From the IMG/VR virus record IMGVR_UViG_2690316109_000019, positions 1-33,696 of that record: a stretch of 33,696 nt of DNA; one strand, written 5' to 3'. The position numbers and the translations under genes are program-made. The notes below the pieces were generated by a model that was not told where the DNA came from, did no database searches, and saw nothing but the letters and a program-made list of their open reading frames with translations. Origin of the DNA: a virus. Lineage: Duplodnaviria > Heunggongvirae > Uroviricota > Caudoviricetes. Below, one piece after another: positions 6,906 through 26,839 of the stretch. Within the stretch, counting starts at the first letter, position 1, and each line of letters begins with the position of its first letter.

Positions 6906-7165
6906 GTAAAAACACAACGTGATTTGATATGGCATTGAATGGCTTATGCGGAGCAGTTATGGGGCAGCAGAAGGTCAATAGCATGCTGAATTAGAAGGCT
7001 AAATGCTATTGAGTGACTAGCATGTCGGTAAGGACAGCCGTTTGATCCGGGTCATAAAAGGCCATCCATTTAGTCTAATAAAATCATTGCGGGTAACCTT
7101 ATGTCGACGCATAATTCGTCTTGAGCGAAGTCTTGTCAGTCTTTCATCGTATTGATGATGGGCGC

Positions 7166-7197
7166 AAAAAAACCACCCTGGCAGGTGGTTTTTTTGT
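7166..7197. terminator. Bidirectional rho-independent terminator
   Basis: 'aaaaaaaccaccctggcaggtggttttttt': GC stem accacc/ggtggt flanked by an A7 run and a T7 run, so it can terminate both the A operon and the minus-strand small ORF. Confidence 0.7.
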
Positions 7198-7207
7198 TTG
7201 AAGCATA

Positions 7208-7321
7208 TTAAAGCATAATGCTGACATTGATATTACTGACGTTTACTGACAAACCACTCGGACTACCGTTTGGATAGCCAAAGAGGGCCAGAACGAGAAT
7301 GCAGTAATAGCATTTCTTCAT
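7208..7321 (-). CDS. Small hydrophobic protein (37 aa), function unknown
   Basis: Perfect AGGAGG ribosome-binding site 5 nt upstream of the ATG (reverse complement of 'catattgcctcctg' at 7319-7332); peptide MKKCYYCILVLALFGYPNGSPSGLSVNVSNINVSIML; terminator immediately downstream. Confidence 0.5.
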   Translation of the reverse strand: MKKCYYCILVLALFGYPNGSPSGLSVNVSNINVSIML

Positions 7322-7799
7322 ATTGCCTCCTGTAAGTAGAGGGCAACTTCCACCGGTATATGCGCTTCTTAGGTGGAATGACTTTTGAGCGAAGTCTTGC
7401 CCTGAAATAATGCTCTGTTTAAACGCAAAGTGATTTGGCATATCACCGAACAGAGAGCCGGAAAAACACAACATATAGTATGTCGTTGTTTCTAGACATA
7501 CATTCTATGTTGTGTAACAAGGGCTTTGCATTAAACATGTTTGAGATTTTATTGATGTAGCTCAAAGTAAAAAACAGAGACTACGGATGATAAGGTCTTG
7601 AAAGCAATGTAAATTTTTTAAAGTTGCCAATTGCTTAAAAATGTACAGTTGCGGTATGGCGTACTTAAAAAGCTATGCATGCAACCAGTGAATGTTTTTG
7701 CATGCGCTGGGGATGTCCGTTCAGGCTGCGTGCGGTCAGGACTGGTGCGGATCCATAGTATCTATGCAACTGCATTAAAACCGCCCCGTGAAGCGGGCG

Positions 7800-7818
7800 G
7801 GCGAGGCGGGGAAAGCAC
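7800..7818. other. cos site: P2-type 19-nt cohesive-end sequence
   Basis: Exact match to GGCGAGGCGGGGAAAGCAC, recalled as the P2 cohesive end; lies between gene A and portal gene Q as expected for a P2-like prophage. Confidence 0.7.
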
Positions 7819-7911
7819 TGCGCGCGAGGCCTGCAACCACCAGTGTCATCTTTTTGGAAATATGCTAAAGTATTCATAAGGTTGGATATCTGGCGTACAG
7901 TGAGATAGTTT

Positions 7912-9240
7912 ATGCGTATAAAAATTAATAATTTTGGAACTATTGCAGAAGCTGATGTTTCAGTTGGTGGTTTAACTGTCATAACTGGTGAAAATGATAC
8001 GGGGAAGAGTACCGTAGGGAAAATATTGTTTTCAATGGTAAAGGCGATATCTCGTTATCAAGAGGATTTAGAAGAAGACAAAGAGGATAGAATTACATCT
8101 ATCGTAGAGAAAATATATTTTAATCTGCGTAGGAGGATTAATATTGCTGCTACGCCGGAAATTAGAGAGTTATTCAATCCAAGAAAGTTTTATGCCTCTC
8201 TAAAAATAGATATCTCTAAAACTTTGGCTGAGAGAGAGAGTTATCTATATAATTTGATTGAGGAAGGGCTTCTTCCAGAATTGATGGCTGATTCTGTACT
8301 CTCTGATATAAGAAAAATCAGAGATATAATGCTTGAGCCAGATGATGAGCTATCTGCTATCAACCGTGCTCTGCGTAAGGCCTTTTACTCTGAATTTAGA
8401 GGCGAAATTATTCAGAAGGGTAATCAAAATCCAGTTAAAGCATCTCTGGAAGTTGTTGATGGTGTTAGTCAGTTAATTGATATTAAATGGACTAAAGATG
8501 GTATATCACAATTTGATTATACTGATGGCTTAGGATATGTCGACGCAACCTATGTTGACTCTCCAAGTATTATGCAATTTCATAATTTGGTTCGTTTTGC
8601 TAAAACTTTATTTGATAGTAATGGTGAATCAGGACGTCTAACTGTTCCATTGCATGTGAAAGATCTATCAATAAAATTAAGCGATTCAGTTTATAATTTA
8701 TTTGTGCATTCGGATATTTTTGATGATGGCTCATTTTTAAAAGAGTCACTGCGTATATCTAACAAAATCAATGCTACTTTCTGTGGTGAAGTGGTTTATG
8801 ATATTGAAAAGAATGATTTTTTTCTAGAGAAGCAAGGCTATAAAGTCACATCGGGTAATATTGCGTCAGGAATAAAGTCTTTAGGTATTCTTGATATGCT
8901 TGTTAAGTGCGGGGCAGCAGTAGATAACTCGTTACTGATTATTGATGAGCCAGAGGTGAACTTACATCCAAAATGGCAGGTTTTCTATGCTGAGATTATT
9001 TGTGAGTTAGTGTCTATGGGGGTTGATATAATAATTACAACACATAGCCCGTATATTATTGATGCTCTTAAACATTATAGCGATAAAATTGGGATTGAAA
9101 ATCGGTTCTATATAAGCGAGCGATTCCCTGGGGAAGAGTTTACATCTTTTGTTGATATTACTGATAATGTTGCATATGCAATTAATCTTTTGGCATCACC
9201 ATTAAAAGAATTGAATCAGGAGTATTTGGATGATTTCTAA
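7912..9240 (+). CDS. ABC-type (AAA_15/AAA_21-like) ATPase, candidate defence-system component
   Basis: 442 aa; Walker A 'GENDTGKST' at residues 26-34; ABC-signature-like 'VTSGNIASG'; Walker B 'LLIIDEPEVNLHP'; H-loop 'IITTHSPYIID'; about 300 residues inserted between Walker A and Walker B, as in SMC/RecF-like defence ATPases; AT-rich relative to the phage backbone. Confidence 0.85.
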   Translation: MRIKINNFGTIAEADVSVGGLTVITGENDTGKSTVGKILFSMVKAISRYQEDLEEDKEDRITSIVEKIYFNLRRRINIAATPEIRELFNPRKFYASLKIDISKTLAERESYLYNLIEEGLLPELMADSVLSDIRKIRDIMLEPDDELSAINRALRKAFYSEFRGEIIQKGNQNPVKASLEVVDGVSQLIDIKWTKDGISQFDYTDGLGYVDATYVDSPSIMQFHNLVRFAKTLFDSNGESGRLTVPLHVKDLSIKLSDSVYNLFVHSDIFDDGSFLKESLRISNKINATFCGEVVYDIEKNDFFLEKQGYKVTSGNIASGIKSLGILDMLVKCGAAVDNSLLIIDEPEVNLHPKWQVFYAEIICELVSMGVDIIITTHSPYIIDALKHYSDKIGIENRFYISERFPGEEFTSFVDITDNVAYAINLLASPLKELNQEYLDDF

Positions 9241-9847
9241 TGAGGAACTTGTTTTTAGAAAACTGTGTGAAGTATACCCTGATTCAATGGTTGATGTAAC
9301 CGGATTAAGCTACAATGATGCAGGGGCTCGGAATTTTATTATTTGTGATTCGAAGGGCTTTAACTATGATACGGTGTTAAATTGCTCGCCTGTTTATAAG
9401 CGTGAGTTTAAAGAAAAATCACCGGATGCTTTATTTTTATATGAAGATAAATTGTACTTCATTGAATTTAAAGAAGGACGTTCACAAAAGGATGATATAA
9501 GGTTGAAAATACATGAAGGTGTTACGACTTTATTTCATTTTGTATGTAAACACCTTCCAGAGTTGACAAGGCAAAATTTTGTAGAGCTTAATTTAAATTA
9601 TGCTGTCGTTTGTAGAGCTAGTGGACATAGAGATATGCGCAGTTCGGCAATGATTGCTGCTCTTGAGAACTCAAGTCAGCGATACAGCTTGAAAAATCTT
9701 GAGGGATTTATAATCAAGAAAACAGCAGTCATGGAGGAGCCTCAACAAATATTGAAGTTCCTTAACAAAATAAGTGCCGGAAAAGTAACATCGATTACTG
9801 TGTTTGAACACTTGGGGCAAACAGAAACGTTTTGCCTATCTGCTTGA
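9230..9847 (+). CDS. Partner protein of the ATPase (205 aa), possible nuclease effector
   Basis: AGGAG ribosome-binding site 8 nt upstream; 11-nt overlap with the ATPase gene (operon); possible degenerate HNH-like segment 'CKHLP...NLNYAVVCRASGH' or PD-(D/E)xK-like 'YEDKLYFIEFK'; neither motif is confirmed. Confidence 0.7.
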   Translation: MISNEELVFRKLCEVYPDSMVDVTGLSYNDAGARNFIICDSKGFNYDTVLNCSPVYKREFKEKSPDALFLYEDKLYFIEFKEGRSQKDDIRLKIHEGVTTLFHFVCKHLPELTRQNFVELNLNYAVVCRASGHRDMRSSAMIAALENSSQRYSLKNLEGFIIKKTAVMEEPQQILKFLNKISAGKVTSITVFEHLGQTETFCLSA

Positions 9848-9852
9848 TCTTA

Positions 9853-9876
9853 CAGGCTTTGGTGAGCCAAAGCCTG
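9853..9876. terminator. Perfect hairpin between convergent genes (cargo operon and Q)
   Basis: 'caggctttgg tgag ccaaagcctg': 10-bp perfect stem, 4-nt loop; no strong T-run. Confidence 0.5.
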
Positions 9877-9882
9877 CAGGGT

Positions 9883-10902
9883 TTATAACGAGTAATTGTT
9901 AAATGTTATAACTGTTTCACCTATCCATGAGTTCAATTCCTTCATTCGCGATTGTAGATGCCCTAACTCATTCCTGACAAAAACTTTAGCCGCTTTAACT
10001 ACATCGCCAAATCCTCCCGCATTATTAGGCATCATCCCCATCATTTGCGGGGGGACTCGATGGGCACTCATTAGATCTTCCGCGCTGGCTTTTTTGATAT
10101 TAAAAAAATCGTCCTTCGTCGCCACTTCACTGAGCGGGATAATTTTAATGCCGTCGGCTTTTCCCTGTGGGGCATAGAGAAACAGATTTTTAAAGTTGTT
10201 GCGGCCTTTCGACTTGACCATGTTTTCGCGAAGCATTTCGATATCGTTGCGGTCCTGCACGGCATCAGTGACGTACATGATGTATCCGGCATGTGCGCCA
10301 TTTTCGTAATACTTGCGGCGGAACAGCGTGGCCGACTCATTCAGCCAGGCAGAGTTAAGGGCGCTGAGATATTCCGGCAGGCCGTACAGTTCCTGATTAA
10401 TATCCGGCTCCAGCAGGTGAAACACGGAGCCGGGCGCGAAGGCTGTCGGCTCGTTGAAGGACGGCACCCACCAGTAAACATCCTCTTCCACACCACGGCG
10501 GGTATATTTTGCCGGTGAGGTTTCCAGCCTGATAACTTTACCGGTGGTGCTGTAACGCTTTTCCAGAAACGCATTACCGAACACCAGAAAATCCAGCACA
10601 AAGCGGCTGAAATCCTGCTGGGAAAGCCACGGATGCGGGATAAATGTCGACGCCAGAATATTGCGTTTGACGTAAATCGGTGAGCTGTGATGCACGGCAG
10701 CACGCAGGCTTTTTGCCAGACCGGTAAAGCTGACCGGTGGCTCATACCATCTGCCGTTACTGATGCATTCGACGTAATCCAGAATGTCACGGCGGTCGAG
10801 TACCGGCACCGGCTCGCCAAAGGTGAATGCCTCCATTTTCGGGGTGCTGGCGGTCATTTTTTTTGCCGCAGGTTGCGGTGTTTTCCCTTTTTTCTTGCTC
10901 AT
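9883..10902 (-). CDS. Q: Portal protein
   Basis: 339 aa; positioned next to cos and the terminase gene; ATGA overlap with P; P2 gpQ-like size. Confidence 0.9.
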   Translation of the reverse strand: MSKKKGKTPQPAAKKMTASTPKMEAFTFGEPVPVLDRRDILDYVECISNGRWYEPPVSFTGLAKSLRAAVHHSSPIYVKRNILASTFIPHPWLSQQDFSRFVLDFLVFGNAFLEKRYSTTGKVIRLETSPAKYTRRGVEEDVYWWVPSFNEPTAFAPGSVFHLLEPDINQELYGLPEYLSALNSAWLNESATLFRRKYYENGAHAGYIMYVTDAVQDRNDIEMLRENMVKSKGRNNFKNLFLYAPQGKADGIKIIPLSEVATKDDFFNIKKASAEDLMSAHRVPPQMMGMMPNNAGGFGDVVKAAKVFVRNELGHLQSRMKELNSWIGETVITFNNYSL

Positions 10903-18603: not shown

Positions 18604-19048
18604 GTTTAAGCGTTTTGAAGACCGGCTGACCGGACTTATTGAATCGCTGTCACCGTCAGGGCGTCGGCGACTGAGCGCCGAACTGGCGAAACGTCTGCGG
18701 CAGAGTCAGCAGCGTCGGGTGATGGCACAGAAAGCCCCGGACGGCACACCCTACGCGCCACGCCAGCAGCAGAGCGCCAGAAAAAAGACCGGTCGTGTTA
18801 AGCGAAAAATGTTTGCGAAACTTATCACCAGTCGTTTTTTGCATATCCGCGCCAGCCCGGAGCAGGCATCAATGGAATTTTACGGCGGGAAGTCACCGAA
18901 AATCGCCTGCGTGCATCAGTTCGGTCTGTCGGAAGAAAACCGGAAAGACGGTAAGAAAATTGATTATCCGGCGCGTCCTCTGCTCGGCTTTACCGGTGAG
19001 GATGTGCAGATGATTGAAGAGATTATTCTGGCTCACCTGAATCGCTAG
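18596..19048 (+). CDS. S: Tail completion protein S
   Basis: 150 aa, same size and position as P2 gpS. Confidence 0.85.
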   Translation: MNEFKRFEDRLTGLIESLSPSGRRRLSAELAKRLRQSQQRRVMAQKAPDGTPYAPRQQQSARKKTGRVKRKMFAKLITSRFLHIRASPEQASMEFYGGKSPKIACVHQFGLSEENRKDGKKIDYPARPLLGFTGEDVQMIEEIILAHLNR

Positions 19049-19124
19049 CTTTATTGATCTGAGAATATAAGAATGAAATTATTTGATTTAGTATGATTTA
19101 TTTTGAATCTTTACGTTAATAAAT

Positions 19125-19147
19125 AAAAGGCCAGTTATTGGCCTTTT
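19125..19147. terminator. Bidirectional rho-independent terminator between S and the antisense cargo gene
   Basis: 'aaaaggcca gttat tggcctttt': 8-bp stem flanked by A-run and T-run. Confidence 0.7.
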
Positions 19148-19151
19148 ATCA

Positions 19152-20225
19152 TTACTTGCCATTTTTCAATGCGTTGATTAACGATGCTATTTGTTCAATA
19201 CCATCAAATGTAGATGGTATCTTATCATCGGATAGCATGATGTTTGAAAATACTACGTCTTCAAATTTTGAAAGCGCTTCCGGATTGTTTTTCCTTATCT
19301 CTGAGGAATAGTCGCTATAACTCTGAATGAACTGACAAAGGCTCTTTCTGAGTTCTATTTGCATAATCTGAGTTCGTAACGATATATGATTTATCAGTAC
19401 AACTCTAAAGTAATACATAAAAATCAATGTAACTGATGCAAAAGGTAGTGCTGACATAAAATATGTGGCAGCATTTGTCGTTTCGAGAGTTGGTAATTTA
19501 TGCATTCCATAGTATATCAGCGGGGAGGGAATGATTATAGCCAAGATGATAAGAATTATTCTTGATAGCATGATTTCACTTTCTTTCTTTTTGCCAAGTG
19601 AATTAAAGCCATCAAACAATCCAACAAAATTAAATGCGACCTCATACCCTTTTAATGACTCTTTAATTGACTCTATTTTGGCATGTTGCTCCTTTAAGAA
19701 GGAGTCGCACTTTTCGAAAAATTGACGCCCTTCGTTTAAACTATCAATGTATTTTTTATATGTGTCAACATTGCTGGAGCTTAAAACTTCTTTAACCATT
19801 GCTAATGGCAGTTCTCTAAGAGAAAAGTCTATCTGTGCTCTGCTCCGCTCATCGAATTCATTATAGTTATACAGAGCAAAATCCTTGATGGTTCTTAGTG
19901 GTGAAAAGTGAGACTCTATTTCCGGAGAGAGAATGCTTGGTTCAATGATAAATCTAAAAAAGCAAGTGAATATAAGGTTGATGCTGTTGTTATCTTCCCC
20001 CTTTTCTCTTAAGAAACTTTTAAAGGTGTCGCCAATCATAGCAATGTTGTACTGGGATTTTTTGTCCCAATCTTCAGGGTTTTCGGAAATGAAGTTTATT
20101 GCTTGAGCAATTATTTTGTTTCTGTTTGATTCAAAGTTTGTGCTGGGAGTCAGCGTGTTCAAAAAGACCAGATAATCTTTGAACAATTCTTTCATTGTTT
20201 CTGACGAGAAAAAGTAAGTACTCAT
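19152..20225 (-). CDS. AT-rich membrane-anchored cargo protein at the P2 orf30 position, function unknown
   Basis: About 357 aa from ATG 20225 (alternative ATG at 20195); soluble N-terminal region followed by two hydrophobic helices ('IMLSRIILIILAIIIPSPLIYYG', 'YFMSALPFASVTLIFMYYFRVVLINHI') and a C-terminal tail; antisense to the flanking late genes. Confidence 0.7.
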   Translation of the reverse strand: MSTYFFSSETMKELFKDYLVFLNTLTPSTNFESNRNKIIAQAINFISENPEDWDKKSQYNIAMIGDTFKSFLREKGEDNNSINLIFTCFFRFIIEPSILSPEIESHFSPLRTIKDFALYNYNEFDERSRAQIDFSLRELPLAMVKEVLSSSNVDTYKKYIDSLNEGRQFFEKCDSFLKEQHAKIESIKESLKGYEVAFNFVGLFDGFNSLGKKKESEIMLSRIILIILAIIIPSPLIYYGMHKLPTLETTNAATYFMSALPFASVTLIFMYYFRVVLINHISLRTQIMQIELRKSLCQFIQSYSDYSSEIRKNNPEALSKFEDVVFSNIMLSDDKIPSTFDGIEQIASLINALKNGK

Positions 20226-20311
20226 AATGGATTTTGTTGTCCCTTGTTGTTCTGTGCACCAGAAATCGTGGTGTGATTTACTTCGAGATTGTACAGAATC
20301 ATTATTATCGA

Positions 20312-20941
20312 ATGAATGCACAATACAATGAAATTCTTCGCTTTATACGCAATATGATTCGCACTGGCATTATCGTCGAAACCGACCTTAATGCCGGTCG
20401 CTGCCGTGTGCAGACCGGCGGCATGTGCACCGACTGGCTTCAGTGGCTGACCCATCGCGCTGGGCGTTCGCGCACATGGTGGGCACCTTCCGTGGGGGAA
20501 CAGGTGCTGATTCTGGCCGTGGGCGGTGAACTCGACACGGCGTTCGTTCTGCCGGGGATTTATTCCGGCGATAACCCAGCGCCGTCTGCGTCGTCTGATG
20601 CCCTGCATATCCGTTTCCCTGACGGGGCGGTGATTGAGTATGAACCCGAAACCAGTGCACTCACGGTAAGCGGAATTAAAACGGCCAGCGTGACGGCTTC
20701 TGATTCTGTTACTGCCACGGTGCCGGTGGTCATGGTGAAAGCGTCAACCCGCATCACCCTGGACACACCGGAGGTGGTCTGCACCAACAGGCTGATTACC
20801 GGCACGCTGGAAGTACAGAAGGGCGGGACGATGCGTGGCAACATTGAACACACCGGCGGTGAACTCTCATCAAACGGGAAGGTACTGCATACCCATAAAC
20901 ACCCCGGCGACAGCGGCGGCACAACCGGGAGTCCTCTATGA
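20312..20941 (+). CDS. V: Baseplate spike / assembly protein V
   Basis: 209 aa from ATG 20312; P2 gpV size; C-terminal Gly-rich 'HKHPGDSGGTTGSP'. Confidence 0.88.
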   Translation: MNAQYNEILRFIRNMIRTGIIVETDLNAGRCRVQTGGMCTDWLQWLTHRAGRSRTWWAPSVGEQVLILAVGGELDTAFVLPGIYSGDNPAPSASSDALHIRFPDGAVIEYEPETSALTVSGIKTASVTASDSVTATVPVVMVKASTRITLDTPEVVCTNRLITGTLEVQKGGTMRGNIEHTGGELSSNGKVLHTHKHPGDSGGTTGSPL

Positions 20942-25873: not shown

Positions 25874-26839
25874 ATGACCAGTATATTTATATCCTATGCC
25901 AGAGAAGACTTTTTAATTGCAAAAAAACTAACCGAAGAACTAAATCGACATGAGTACAAGGTGTTTTTGGATCAACAATCGATTCAGCTTGGGGCTCATT
26001 GGCAAGAAGATATACTGAAGCATTTAAAAAATGCGGATGTATTTATCGCACTTGTTACTGAACATAGCGATAAGTCTTATTATTTTAATGCAGAGGTTAC
26101 TGGCGCTATATCCTATGTAGCTCATAGCAATCGGGATAAACTTATTTTGCCAGTGGTGCTGGATAAAGAAGTGCTTAATGATAGCGATCTTGGGGCCTTC
26201 CAAGCATTATTCGCACGCTCTGATGATATGACATACCTCGTACATGAAATTGTGAATGCTATCAGCCGCTTCGAAGGTGCCCGACTAGCTCAGGAAGAGA
26301 TAAAAGAAATTCGAGCACAAGTTCTTAAAGATGAATCAGCCGATTACATAAGCGAAACAATTGAGGATCTTAAGGCGCGCGAAAAAGCTGGTCGCCAATT
26401 ATCGTCAAGATGGCATTTTGCTGGATATGCGGCATTAATACTTTCTGTCATTTTCGTATTTATTCTTTGGTATTTGGCTGAGCGTTCATTTGTACAATCA
26501 CCTCTTGATACCACTAGACTGGTTTTCGATGCCATTAAGGGCGTAACGGTTGTTGCGTTACTTTTGGGCTTGGCAAGATATTCATTTTTAATGGCGAAAA
26601 CTCATCAATTAGAAGCTTTGAAGAACGCCGATCGTCTGCACGCCATTTCTTTCGGGAAATTTTATATGCGCGTTTTCTCTACGCAAATATCTCAATCTGA
26701 ATTAAAAGAAGTATTTCAACATTGGAATACTTCAGGGGCGTCAGATTTGTCGCATCTTGATGTAGATAAAATTGACTCGCGATTTATTGAACTCTTTGGG
26801 AAAATTGCATCAAGATTTGATGGCAAAAATAAACCTTAA
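25874..26839 (+). CDS. TIR-domain protein with two C-terminal transmembrane helices, candidate abortive-infection / defence effector
   Basis: 321 aa; N-terminal TIR signature 'IFISYAREDF ... KVFLD ... WQEDIL ... ADVFIALVTEHSDKSYYFNAEV' with a putative catalytic Glu near residue 74; coiled-coil linker; two hydrophobic helices ('AGYAALILSVIFVFILWYLA', 'VTVVALLLGLARYSFLMA'); AT-rich, at the P2 Z/fun cargo position. Confidence 0.85.
   Translation: MTSIFISYAREDFLIAKKLTEELNRHEYKVFLDQQSIQLGAHWQEDILKHLKNADVFIALVTEHSDKSYYFNAEVTGAISYVAHSNRDKLILPVVLDKEVLNDSDLGAFQALFARSDDMTYLVHEIVNAISRFEGARLAQEEIKEIRAQVLKDESADYISETIEDLKAREKAGRQLSSRWHFAGYAALILSVIFVFILWYLAERSFVQSPLDTTRLVFDAIKGVTVVALLLGLARYSFLMAKTHQLEALKNADRLHAISFGKFYMRVFSTQISQSELKEVFQHWNTSGASDLSHLDVDKIDSRFIELFGKIASRFDGKNKP

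What the first reader, a model, noticed from the sequence alone, without database searches (positions are those of the whole stretch)
19152..20225. AT-rich antisense membrane-protein gene between tail genes S and V (the P2 orf30 position)
Seen in sequence: a minus-strand ORF of about 357 aa embedded antisense within the plus-strand late operon and bracketed by a bidirectional terminator (19125-19147). It is markedly AT-rich. It has a soluble N-terminal domain of about 240 aa, then two long hydrophobic helices and a short C-terminal tail. Established knowledge: P2 has an AT-rich, oppositely oriented gene of unknown function (orf30) at this same S/V junction, considered horizontally acquired. 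Inference: this junction is a third cargo site and the protein is a candidate membrane-acting exclusion or abortive-infection factor that could be expressed in the lysogen. Its true start is uncertain (ATG 20225 or 20195; the longest frame overlaps the V start region).
Basis: partly seen in the sequence, partly recalled or inferred. Interest (0 to 1): 0.6.

Follow-up and report, generated by a model that had tools for sequence, protein, structure and literature searches.

The report
Orphan membrane-protein gene in P2 prophage
A foreign, AT-rich gene at a known cargo site of a P2-like E. coli prophage encodes a membrane-anchored protein from a large, unstudied family that moves between phages and bacteria; it is probably an anti-phage factor, but that is not proven.

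Summary
A 357-aa minus-strand gene (19152-20225) lies between tail genes S and V. Its GC is 35%, against 54-58% for its neighbours, and a genuine two-way terminator hairpin (19125-19147) follows it. Three details need correcting:
- The site is the boundary between two late operons, not the inside of one.
- Family conservation supports the start at ATG 20225.
- The "short C-terminal tail" is about 78 aa and is the most conserved part of the protein.

The protein is unrelated to P2 Orf30, which only shares the position. It belongs to an unnamed family (PHROG 9373, function unknown). The family has no Pfam, NCBIfam, PADLOC or PDB match. It comprises about 930 clusters at 50% identity across several bacterial phyla.

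Members are nearly always solitary and about 14 GC points poorer than their flanks. They have no conserved partner gene. They recur as antisense inserts in two unrelated temperate-phage lineages.

The predicted topology places both termini in the cytoplasm, joined by a transmembrane hairpin. E. coli alleles are under purifying selection (dN/dS about 0.12).

My best reading is a single-gene, membrane-acting abortive-infection or exclusion factor, at confidence about 0.4. The support is context and architecture only; there is no functional evidence. It is a cheaply testable candidate of moderate interest.

The parts
19152..20225 (-). Coding sequence of the 357-aa cargo protein. Residues 1-150 form a helical-bundle domain. 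A long helix (152-231) runs into TM1 (about 220-241). A 10-13 aa loop follows, then TM2 (about 254-279) and a conserved cytoplasmic C-terminal module (280-346) ending in the invariant P-S-T-F-D-G motif.
   Evidence: ORF. PGAP calls the same CDS in E. coli LR-45. PHROG 9373, E 3e-134. 348 homologues. dN/dS 0.04-0.38 among E. coli alleles. AF2 model, pLDDT 82.9. Topology statistics.
19125..19147 (.). GC-rich hairpin with an A-run and a T-run on either side. It is a two-way intrinsic terminator serving both the cargo gene and the S-ending late operon.
   Evidence: Folds on both strands with z about -4; no shuffle folds as well. P2 has a terminator annotated at the equivalent place, but its sequence is unrelated.
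19049..20311 (.). AT-rich cargo island (GC 0.34) between the S stop codon and the V start codon. The same site is only about 72 bp long in 'empty' prophages.
   Evidence: Composition. Empty-site span of 1959 bp against a 1887-bp flank query.
20226..20311 (.). An 86-bp divergent control region. It should hold the late promoter pV (rightward) and the cargo gene's own promoter (leftward).
   Evidence: V start at 20312 taken from the PGAP annotation of the near-identical prophage. Geometry matches P2.
20244..20271 (+). Inferred binding site of the late-gene activator (Ogr-type) for pV. It begins with the TGTTGT shared by prophages that carry different cargo.
   Evidence: Alignment to the activator-binding site annotated in P2. 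Inference only.
20288..20316 (-). Best candidate sigma-70 promoter of the cargo gene: TTCATT, 17-nt spacer, TACAAT (8 of 12 matches). The -35 element overlaps the V start codon.
   Evidence: Read by eye from the sequence. It falls below the threshold of the promoter scan, which found no minus-strand site upstream of 20225. Weak.

Best explanation
The gene is a self-contained, horizontally mobile 'moron' carried at the S/V inter-operon junction of a P2-like prophage. It encodes an inner-membrane protein. Both large parts face the cytoplasm: an N-terminal helical bundle joined to a long stalk helix, and a highly conserved C-terminal module. A transmembrane hairpin with a tiny periplasmic loop links them.

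I propose that it is made in the lysogen and acts alone as an abortive-infection or exclusion factor. It would rest in the membrane in an auto-inhibited state. On sensing a cue from an infecting phage through its cytoplasmic domains, it would oligomerise or rearrange so that the hairpin and juxtamembrane helices breach or depolarise the inner membrane. That would stop the competing phage.

Shown here: the gene, the terminator, its foreign composition, purifying selection, the topology signals, the family's size and mobility, its solitary nature, and its recurrence in phage cargo sites.

Inferred: expression in the lysogen, a defence role, the trigger, and membrane damage as the effect.
For: 1. 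Cargo-site context.
- The window has three AT-rich islands at the three classical P2 transfer sites.
- The other two hold defence-type genes. One is an ABC-type ATPase matching HEC-02A, PD-T4-4_A and AriA, with a 205-aa partner. The other is a TIR-domain protein.
- At the S/V site itself, E. coli S88 carries an antisense RelA/SpoT protein matching defence candidate PDC-S33.

2. The site is polymorphic. It is empty in about 60% of sampled prophages, and different cargo occupies it in the rest.

3. Independent capture by another temperate-phage lineage. Klebsiella phage-plasmid pJN2-26 carries a family member (hhalign probability 99.6%, E 8e-25). It is antisense among replication genes, with GC 0.36 against 0.50. 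Yersinia P2-like phages have it at the same S/V site.

4. The family behaves like mobile defence cargo.
- About 930 clusters at 50% identity, nearly all 350-370 aa.
- Present in Gamma-, Beta-, Delta- and Epsilon-proteobacteria, Bacteroidota and Planctomycetes.
- No conserved neighbour.
- GC is lower than the flanks in 73 of 75 loci, by a mean of 14 points.

5. It is a real, constrained gene. dN/dS is 0.12 for the most diverged E. coli pair. The N-terminal half evolves about three times faster than the C-terminal half.

6. Architecture.
- Two hydrophobic segments are conserved in 78-79 of 82 members.
- Mean K+R counts are 3.6 before TM1, 0.7 in the loop and 3.0 after TM2.
- The loop is 10-13 aa long with 12% identity.
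- The model is all-alpha, with a long helical hairpin whose tip is the membrane segment.

Against: - No defence phenotype, expression data or toxicity data exist. I found no paper on the family.
- There is no hit to any PADLOC model.
- No convincing sigma-70 promoter or Shine-Dalgarno sequence precedes ATG 20225.
- Only a few immediate neighbours in chromosomal loci are defence genes. Many are housekeeping genes.
- Pasteurellaceae copies sit inside the his operon, between hisB and hisH. That could indicate a non-defence role.
- The structural matches are to generic helical bundles and hairpins. Foldseek found nothing significant (best E 0.039, TM-score at most 0.28).
Confidence: 0.4

Rival explanations
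1. It is a non-defence membrane function that benefits the host, such as envelope-stress tolerance, membrane remodelling or regulation of a transporter. It would be carried as a lysogenic-conversion gene and retained in chromosomes for the same reason.
Against: The gene is compositionally foreign almost everywhere. It has a patchy distribution across phyla at 30-40% identity. It occupies phage cargo sites that otherwise hold defence genes. A housekeeping function would be expected to show syntenic, vertically inherited copies.
Confidence: 0.25
2. It is a classical superinfection-exclusion protein. It would block DNA entry of incoming phages at the inner membrane, as T4 Imm, P22 SieA or HK97 gp15 do, without killing the cell.
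For: It is a prophage-encoded inner-membrane protein at a cargo site with its own terminator. Prophage exclusion proteins of this kind are well established (general knowledge).
Against: Periplasmic exposure is only a 10-13 aa, non-conserved loop. The conserved mass is cytoplasmic. The family occurs in many non-phage contexts and in distant phyla, which is unusual for receptor- or injection-specific exclusion. The only PHROG hit is an unannotated family.
Confidence: 0.12
3. It serves the carrier phage's own life cycle, for example by modulating lysis timing or membrane state during induction, rather than acting against competitors.
For: It lies just downstream of the lysis cassette and the R/S genes. 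It has two transmembrane helices, like class II holins. Its start region overlaps the late promoter pV control region.
Against: It is absent from most P2-like prophages (empty site in about 60% of the sample). Its orientation is antisense and it has its own terminator. At 357 aa with large cytoplasmic domains it is unlike holins. Most family members are not in phages. P2 Orf30 at this site is annotated as nonessential.
Confidence: 0.08
4. It is a selfish addiction or toxin-like element, or a silenced remnant with no current function for phage or host.
For: It is AT-rich foreign DNA of the type usually silenced by H-NS (general knowledge). Expression signals are weak. It is a solitary gene with no partner.
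Against: Purifying selection acts on the protein (dN/dS 0.04-0.38). All 60 E. coli matches cover at least 80% of the gene (most at 99-100%), and every listed copy is annotated as an intact CDS. The uniform architecture is kept across about 930 clusters. No antitoxin-like neighbour is conserved.
Confidence: 0.07

Closest known systems
Phage P2 Orf30 (NP_046770), the nonessential gene between S and V
   Same: Same junction and same antisense orientation. Same layout: S, terminator, cargo, pV activator site, V. GC is 0.34 in both. Both are unannotated proteins with hydrophobic stretches.
   Different: No sequence relationship (BLASTP E 1.3). Orf30 is 261 aa, against 357 aa here. Their terminators are unrelated in sequence. 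They are alternative cargoes of one site, not alleles of one gene.
Prophage defence 'morons' at the other P2 hotspots (old/tin at A/Q, Z/fun at G/FI; Rousset et al. 2022, PMC9122126)
   Same: AT-rich accessory genes inserted between conserved phage modules and swapped between otherwise near-identical prophages. This window carries defence-type genes at both of those hotspots.
   Different: The S/V site was not examined in the Rousset et al. 2022 hotspot study (PMC9122126). The other two P2 hotspot papers I checked did not mention S, V or orf30 where I searched. This protein matches no validated or candidate defence model.
Membrane-disrupting effectors of abortive-infection systems (two-TM effectors of CBASS/Pycsar, SLATT-domain proteins, lambda RexB)
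   Same: Inner-membrane helices attached to cytoplasmic domains. The proposed outcome, loss of membrane integrity on infection, would be the same.
   Different: No Pfam or PADLOC hit to any of them. There is no partner sensor or signal-generating enzyme next to it, so it would have to sense and act alone. The resemblance is one of kind, recalled from general knowledge. It is not homology.
Coiled-coil / four-helix-bundle cell-death domains (plant CC-NLR CC domains, MLKL N-terminal bundle, fungal HeLo and HeLo-like)
Alpha-helical pore-forming toxins and translocators (IpaB, AhlC/ClyA family)
   Different: Those are secreted proteins that act on other cells. This one has no signal peptide and a both-termini-in topology. 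Foldseek finds no significant match. The matches reflect a generic coiled-coil hairpin.

Membership tests
PHROG 9373 (phage protein family, function unknown) | Significant full-length match to the family profile | tested here: met
   E 3e-134, residues 13-356 against profile positions 7-387 of 388. The family has no annotated function.
P2 Orf30 family | Sequence homology to P2 Orf30 | tested here: not met
   BLASTP best E 1.3 over 16 residues.
P2 Orf30 family | Antisense gene between S and V, flanked by the O-operon terminator and the pV control region | tested here: met
   P2 annotation compared with the window.
Phage 'moron' (autonomous accessory gene unit) | Composition distinct from the surrounding phage genes | tested here: met
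   GC 0.349 against 0.541 (S) and 0.578 (V).
Phage 'moron' (autonomous accessory gene unit) | Own transcription terminator | tested here: met
   Hairpin 19125-19147 followed by a U-run, z -4.0.
Phage 'moron' (autonomous accessory gene unit) | Own promoter active in the lysogen | tested here: inconclusive
   The scan found no minus-strand consensus promoter upstream of 20225. The best hand-picked candidate matches 8 of 12 positions. Expression cannot be tested with these tools.
Phage 'moron' (autonomous accessory gene unit) | Present or absent among otherwise similar phages | tested here: met
   60 of about 1416 E. coli genomes with these S and V flanks carry it. Most of the sampled sites are empty or hold other cargo.
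Known or candidate anti-phage defence proteins (PADLOC-DB v2.0.0) | Match to any of 5027 defence protein models | tested here: not met
   0 families at E up to 10. The Yersinia phage homologue also gives none.
Pfam membrane-effector and other curated domains (including SLATT, holin, HeLo, MLKL_N, Rx_N, RPW8 families) | Profile match above or near the gathering threshold | tested here: not met
   Only chance-level hits for the query. No family recurs among the 82 members. NCBIfam gives none.
CC / four-helix-bundle cell-death domains | Fold similarity of the N-terminal domain | tested here: inconclusive
Class II holins | Small (under about 150 aa) two-TM protein encoded in the lysis cassette and co-transcribed with the endolysin | tested here: not met
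   The protein is 357 aa with large cytoplasmic domains, is antisense, and lies outside the lysis cassette. The cassette has its own holin in the near-identical prophage.
Superinfection-exclusion membrane proteins (Imm, SieA, gp15 type) | Sequence relationship to a described exclusion protein family | tested here: not met
   The only PHROG hit is the unannotated family 9373.
Superinfection-exclusion membrane proteins (Imm, SieA, gp15 type) | Blocks entry of phage DNA | not testable with these tools
   Needs infection assays.
Solved structures (PDB) | Sequence or fold relative with a solved structure | tested here: not met
   phmmer and profile search give nothing below E 0.27. Foldseek best E 0.039 with TM-score at most 0.28.

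The most novel reading that the evidence does not exclude
The family is a previously unrecognised, widespread class of single-protein immune executioners. It would be permanently anchored in the inner membrane. Its N-terminal bundle would be a prokaryotic counterpart of the CC/MLKL/HeLo four-helix-bundle death domains of plants, animals and fungi. The conserved C-terminal module would control its release onto the membrane during phage infection.
Probability: 0.1. Interest if true: 0.85.

Novelty: new variant of a known kind. Interest (0 to 1): 0.5.

Why it matters
P2-like prophages are among the most productive places to find anti-phage systems, but work has focused on the A/Q and G/FI hotspots. 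This finding shows that the third, long-known but neglected S/V site also turns over cargo. One of those cargoes is a RelA/SpoT-type defence candidate.

One recurrent cargo belongs to a large, uniform protein family that no database names. The family is spread over several bacterial phyla and two unrelated temperate-phage lineages.

If it is a defence gene, it adds a new stand-alone membrane effector that senses and acts within one 357-aa protein. It would also explain hundreds of orphan AT-rich genes in bacterial genomes. If it is not, it is still a conserved mobile membrane protein of unknown purpose that is easy to test.

Tried and rejected
- **Homology to P2 Orf30:** rejected.
- **Known domains and defence models** (Pfam, NCBIfam, PADLOC; single sequence and all 82 members): nothing.
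- **AlphaFold-database fold search:** library unavailable.
- **Conserved partner gene or operon:** none. The largest neighbour cluster covers 10 of 76 loci and consists of unrelated two-component or ABC genes.
- **Defence-island enrichment of immediate neighbours:** only a handful of hits, not decisive.
- **tRNA-linked islands:** a tRNA gene lies within about 2 kb of the gene in only 5 of 54 loci.
- **Exact TGT-N12-ACA late-promoter motif near V:** no exact match. The site was instead inferred by alignment to P2.
- **Rfam:** no RNA family anywhere in the window.
- **Literature searches** by accession, PHROG number and topic: no paper on this family.
- **Pseudogene or chance ORF:** rejected on dN/dS and family conservation.

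Full report
**1. The observation**

The window is a P2-like prophage. It is almost identical to one inserted between pflA and pflB in E. coli LR-45. A minus-strand ORF runs 19152..20321, and the ATG at 20225 gives 357 aa.

GC drops to 0.33-0.37 over about 19000-20300, against 0.55-0.60 on both sides. The gene is 0.349, S is 0.541 and V is 0.578.

The hairpin AAAAGGCCAGTTATTGGCCTTTT (19125-19147) lies between the S stop (19048) and the cargo stop (19152). It folds on both strands far better than shuffled sequence (z -4.0 and -3.7). Runs of A and T flank it, so a two-way terminator is a fair reading.

Two hydrophobic segments are present.

**2.

- *Operon position.* In the P2 reference record the order is S, 'terminator for O operon', Orf30 (minus strand, nonessential), 'activator binding site; activation of pV promoter', then V. 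The junction therefore separates two late transcription units. The gene is not embedded inside one, and the terminator sits on one side only.
- *V start and control region.* V starts at 20312, leaving 86 bp for pV and the cargo promoter. Alignment with P2 and with prophages carrying other cargo shows a shared TGTTGT where P2's activator site begins. I place the equivalent site at about 20244-20271.
- *Cargo promoter.* The scan found no minus-strand consensus promoter upstream of 20225. The best hand-picked candidate is TTCATT-17-TACAAT at 20316-20288, matching 8 of 12 positions. The Shine-Dalgarno-like AAGGGA lies 14 nt from the ATG. Expression signals are therefore weak or unconventional.
- *Start codon.* PGAP uses 357 aa in LR-45 and MS1737 but 347 aa in strain 7/2. 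Homologues are 353-358 aa and F6 is invariant in 82 of them. This supports ATG 20225.

**3. Is it a real gene?**

Yes. Sixty of 5426 complete E. coli genomes carry it at 92-99.6% nucleotide identity, annotated as an intact CDS in every copy listed.

Nei-Gojobori dN/dS among four alleles is 0.04-0.38, and 0.12 for the most diverged pair. dN is 0.049 in the N-terminal half and 0.017 in the C-terminal half. One allele looks mosaic, which suggests recombination between alleles.

**4. What family is it?**

- It is not Orf30 (BLASTP E 1.3).
- It matches PHROG 9373, function unknown, at E 3e-134.
- It matches nothing meaningful in Pfam, NCBIfam or PADLOC. This also holds when all 82 aligned members are scanned.
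- The word-indexed search found 348 homologues, all labelled 'hypothetical'.
- The exhaustive profile search found 930 clusters at 50% identity with E up to 1e-3, and 676 with E up to 1e-30. Almost all are 350-370 aa and aligned end to end.
- In one-genome-per-species contigs, relatives occur in Gamma-, Beta-, Delta- and Epsilon-proteobacteria, Bacteroidota and Planctomycetes at about 30-40% identity.

**5. Context of relatives**

- *No partner gene.* After crude gene calling and clustering of four neighbours on each side, the largest neighbour cluster covers only 10 of 76 loci. It consists of two-component or ABC genes. Pfam on the immediate neighbours is heterogeneous.
- *P2-like prophages.* Four loci (Erwinia ×2, Pectobacterium, Symbiopectobacterium) show the gpV/gpW/gpS neighbours of a P2-like prophage. 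Two Yersinia P2-like phages have a 36-39% identical homologue at the same antisense S/V position.
- *Phage-plasmids.* Klebsiella phage-plasmids of about 110-120 kb carry a distant member (hhalign probability 99.6%, E 8e-25). In the annotated record pJN2-26 it lies antisense among replication genes, with GC 0.36 against about 0.50.
- *Pasteurellaceae.* Copies lie co-oriented between hisB and hisH.
- *Defence and tRNA links.* A few neighbours are defence-type: GmrSD/HEC-06, PDC-S20, PDC-S35, PDC-S02 and a dGTPase. A tRNA gene lies within about 2 kb of the gene in only 5 of 54 loci.
- *Composition.* The gene is GC-poorer than its flanks in 73 of 75 loci, by a mean of 14 points. This marks it as a small mobile islet wherever it is found.

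**6. The S/V site as a cargo site**

The literature already lists the orf30 locus among three regions of P2-like phages that hold horizontally acquired genes (PMC3091744). It also describes a different 741-bp ORF there in phage R18C (PMC6823313).

The three hotspot studies I checked centre on the A/Q and G/FI hotspots. [quoted passage not shown] None mentioned S, V or orf30 where I searched (PMC9122126; bioRxiv 2024.10.15.618418; PMC13586616).

I queried R+S joined to V+W against complete E. coli genomes. 1416 genomes hold both flanks. Of the 53 evenly spaced sample records in which both flanks matched across the junction:

| State of the S/V site | Records |
|---|---|
| Empty (about 72 bp) | 33 |
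| Orf30 size | 12 |
| This gene | 3 |
| 741-bp sense ORF | 3 |
| 744-bp antisense ORF | 1 |
| 359-aa antisense RelA/SpoT protein (E. coli S88) | 1 |

The RelA/SpoT protein matches PADLOC candidate PDC-S33.

The window's other two AT-rich islands hold defence-type genes. One is an ABC-type ATPase (7912-9240; HEC-02A, PD-T4-4_A, AriA-like) with a 205-aa partner. The other is a TIR-domain protein (25874-26839).

**7. Anatomy of the protein**

- *Model.* The AlphaFold model built on 82 sequences has mean pLDDT 82.9 and is all-helical. It shows a compact bundle (residues 9-150), a very long helix (152-231), a short turn, and a second long helix (252-313). Shorter C-terminal helices follow, with a low-confidence loop at 330-343.
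- *Hydrophobic segments.* They are conserved in 78-79 of 82 members.
- *Topology.* Mean K+R counts are 3.55 before TM1, 0.71 in the loop and 2.99 after TM2. The loop is 10-13 aa with 12% mean identity. Both termini are therefore predicted to be cytoplasmic, with almost no periplasmic exposure.
- *Conservation.* It peaks just before TM1 (AFNFVGL..GF..LG..K), in TM2 (P261, Y271, F273, R274), and across 280-346 (Q..MQIELRKSLCQFIQSY ... KFE..FSNIM ... KIPSTFDG).
- *Chemistry.* No catalytic-looking motif is evident (my reading of the alignment).

**8. Fold comparisons**

- Foldseek against the PDB gives nothing significant (best E 0.039, TM-score at most 0.28).

**9. Most likely mechanism**

The features are:
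- an autonomous gene with foreign composition and its own terminator;
- a position at a swappable prophage cargo site that elsewhere holds a defence candidate;
- two other defence-type cargoes in the same prophage;
- repeated capture by unrelated temperate phages;
- no partner gene;
- a conserved membrane hairpin joined to cytoplasmic domains, of which the N-terminal one evolves faster.

Together these point best to a single-protein abortive-infection or exclusion factor that acts on the inner membrane. I give this 0.4.

Which cytoplasmic part senses and which executes is open. Conservation suggests that the C-terminal and juxtamembrane module is the core machinery and the N-domain the adaptable part. 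The weak fold echoes suggest the opposite.

The rivals are:
- a non-defence membrane function (0.25), favoured by the his-operon copies and housekeeping neighbours;
- entry-blocking exclusion (0.12), disfavoured by the tiny variable periplasmic loop;
- a role in the carrier phage's own cycle (0.08);
- a selfish or silent element (0.07).

**10. Novelty and verdict**

The cargo site and the idea of a prophage exclusion gene are established. The protein family is undescribed, large and uniform, and has no detectable relative among known defence proteins or solved structures.

I class it as a new variant of a known kind, of moderate interest (0.5). It is a well-defined, cheap-to-test candidate rather than a surprise. 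No functional claim is proven here.

Noticed in passing
window 7912-9847 (AT-rich island about 7000-10000): At the gpA/portal hotspot there is a 442-aa ABC-type AAA ATPase. Its best PADLOC hits are HEC-02A (1.8e-33), PD-T4-4_A (1.7e-30) and AriA. An overlapping 205-aa ORF with no hits follows it. GC is 0.35. This is probably a two-gene defence system. It differs from the reverse transcriptase plus ATPase carried at this site by the otherwise near-identical LR-45 prophage.
   Followed up: partly
window 25874-26839: At the G/FI (Z/fun) hotspot there is a 321-aa protein with an N-terminal TIR domain (Pfam TIR_2 6.4e-21; PADLOC PDC-S66 and ThsB-like). GC is 0.39.
   Followed up: partly
window 6906-7911: About 1 kb lies between the end of gene A and the ATPase gene with no ORF over 105 aa. 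GC is about 0.42. No Rfam family matches.
   Followed up: no
L085:1294-2373 (E. coli S88 prophage, S/V site): A 359-aa antisense RelA/SpoT-domain protein occupies the same S/V site (annotated GTP pyrophosphokinase; Pfam RelA_SpoT 1.8e-21; PADLOC PDC-S33 1.1e-16). GC is 0.33. It looks like a toxic alarmone-synthetase type defence candidate.
   Followed up: partly
L086:1427-2170 and L087:1231-1971 (other E. coli prophages, S/V site): Two further unrelated cargoes occupy the site. One is a 247-aa antisense ORF. The other is a 246-aa ORF on the same strand as the tail genes. Neither has a Pfam or PADLOC hit.
   Followed up: partly
L052, L057-L060, L063 (Pasteurellaceae): Family members sit co-oriented inside the histidine biosynthesis operon, between hisB and hisH. 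An IS200-like transposase gene is sometimes nearby. Their GC is 0.26-0.28, against 0.39-0.50 in the flanks.
   Followed up: partly
L089:4572-5738 (Klebsiella phage-plasmid pJN2-26) and hits H5-H7: SSU5-like phage-plasmids of about 110-120 kb carry a 388-aa distant family member. In the annotated record pJN2-26 it is an antisense AT-rich insert between the primase gene and other replication genes.
   Followed up: yes
L090:202-1245 compared with L003:20103-21176: NCBI's pipeline annotates different start codons for the same gene in different genomes (347 aa against 357 aa). Some database entries use the 389-aa GTG frame.
   Followed up: yes
L092 compared with L090 and L091: One E. coli allele has an N-terminal half like one lineage and a C-terminal half like another. 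Only 1 synonymous and 3 non-synonymous differences separate its C-terminal half from L090. This suggests recombination within the gene.
   Followed up: no
window 20255-20275: An inverted repeat CACCA-N7-TGGTG lies inside the presumed pV control region. The terminator scan flagged it. A partly conserved counterpart exists upstream of V in the Yersinia phages. Its role is unknown; it may be part of the activator site.
   Followed up: no
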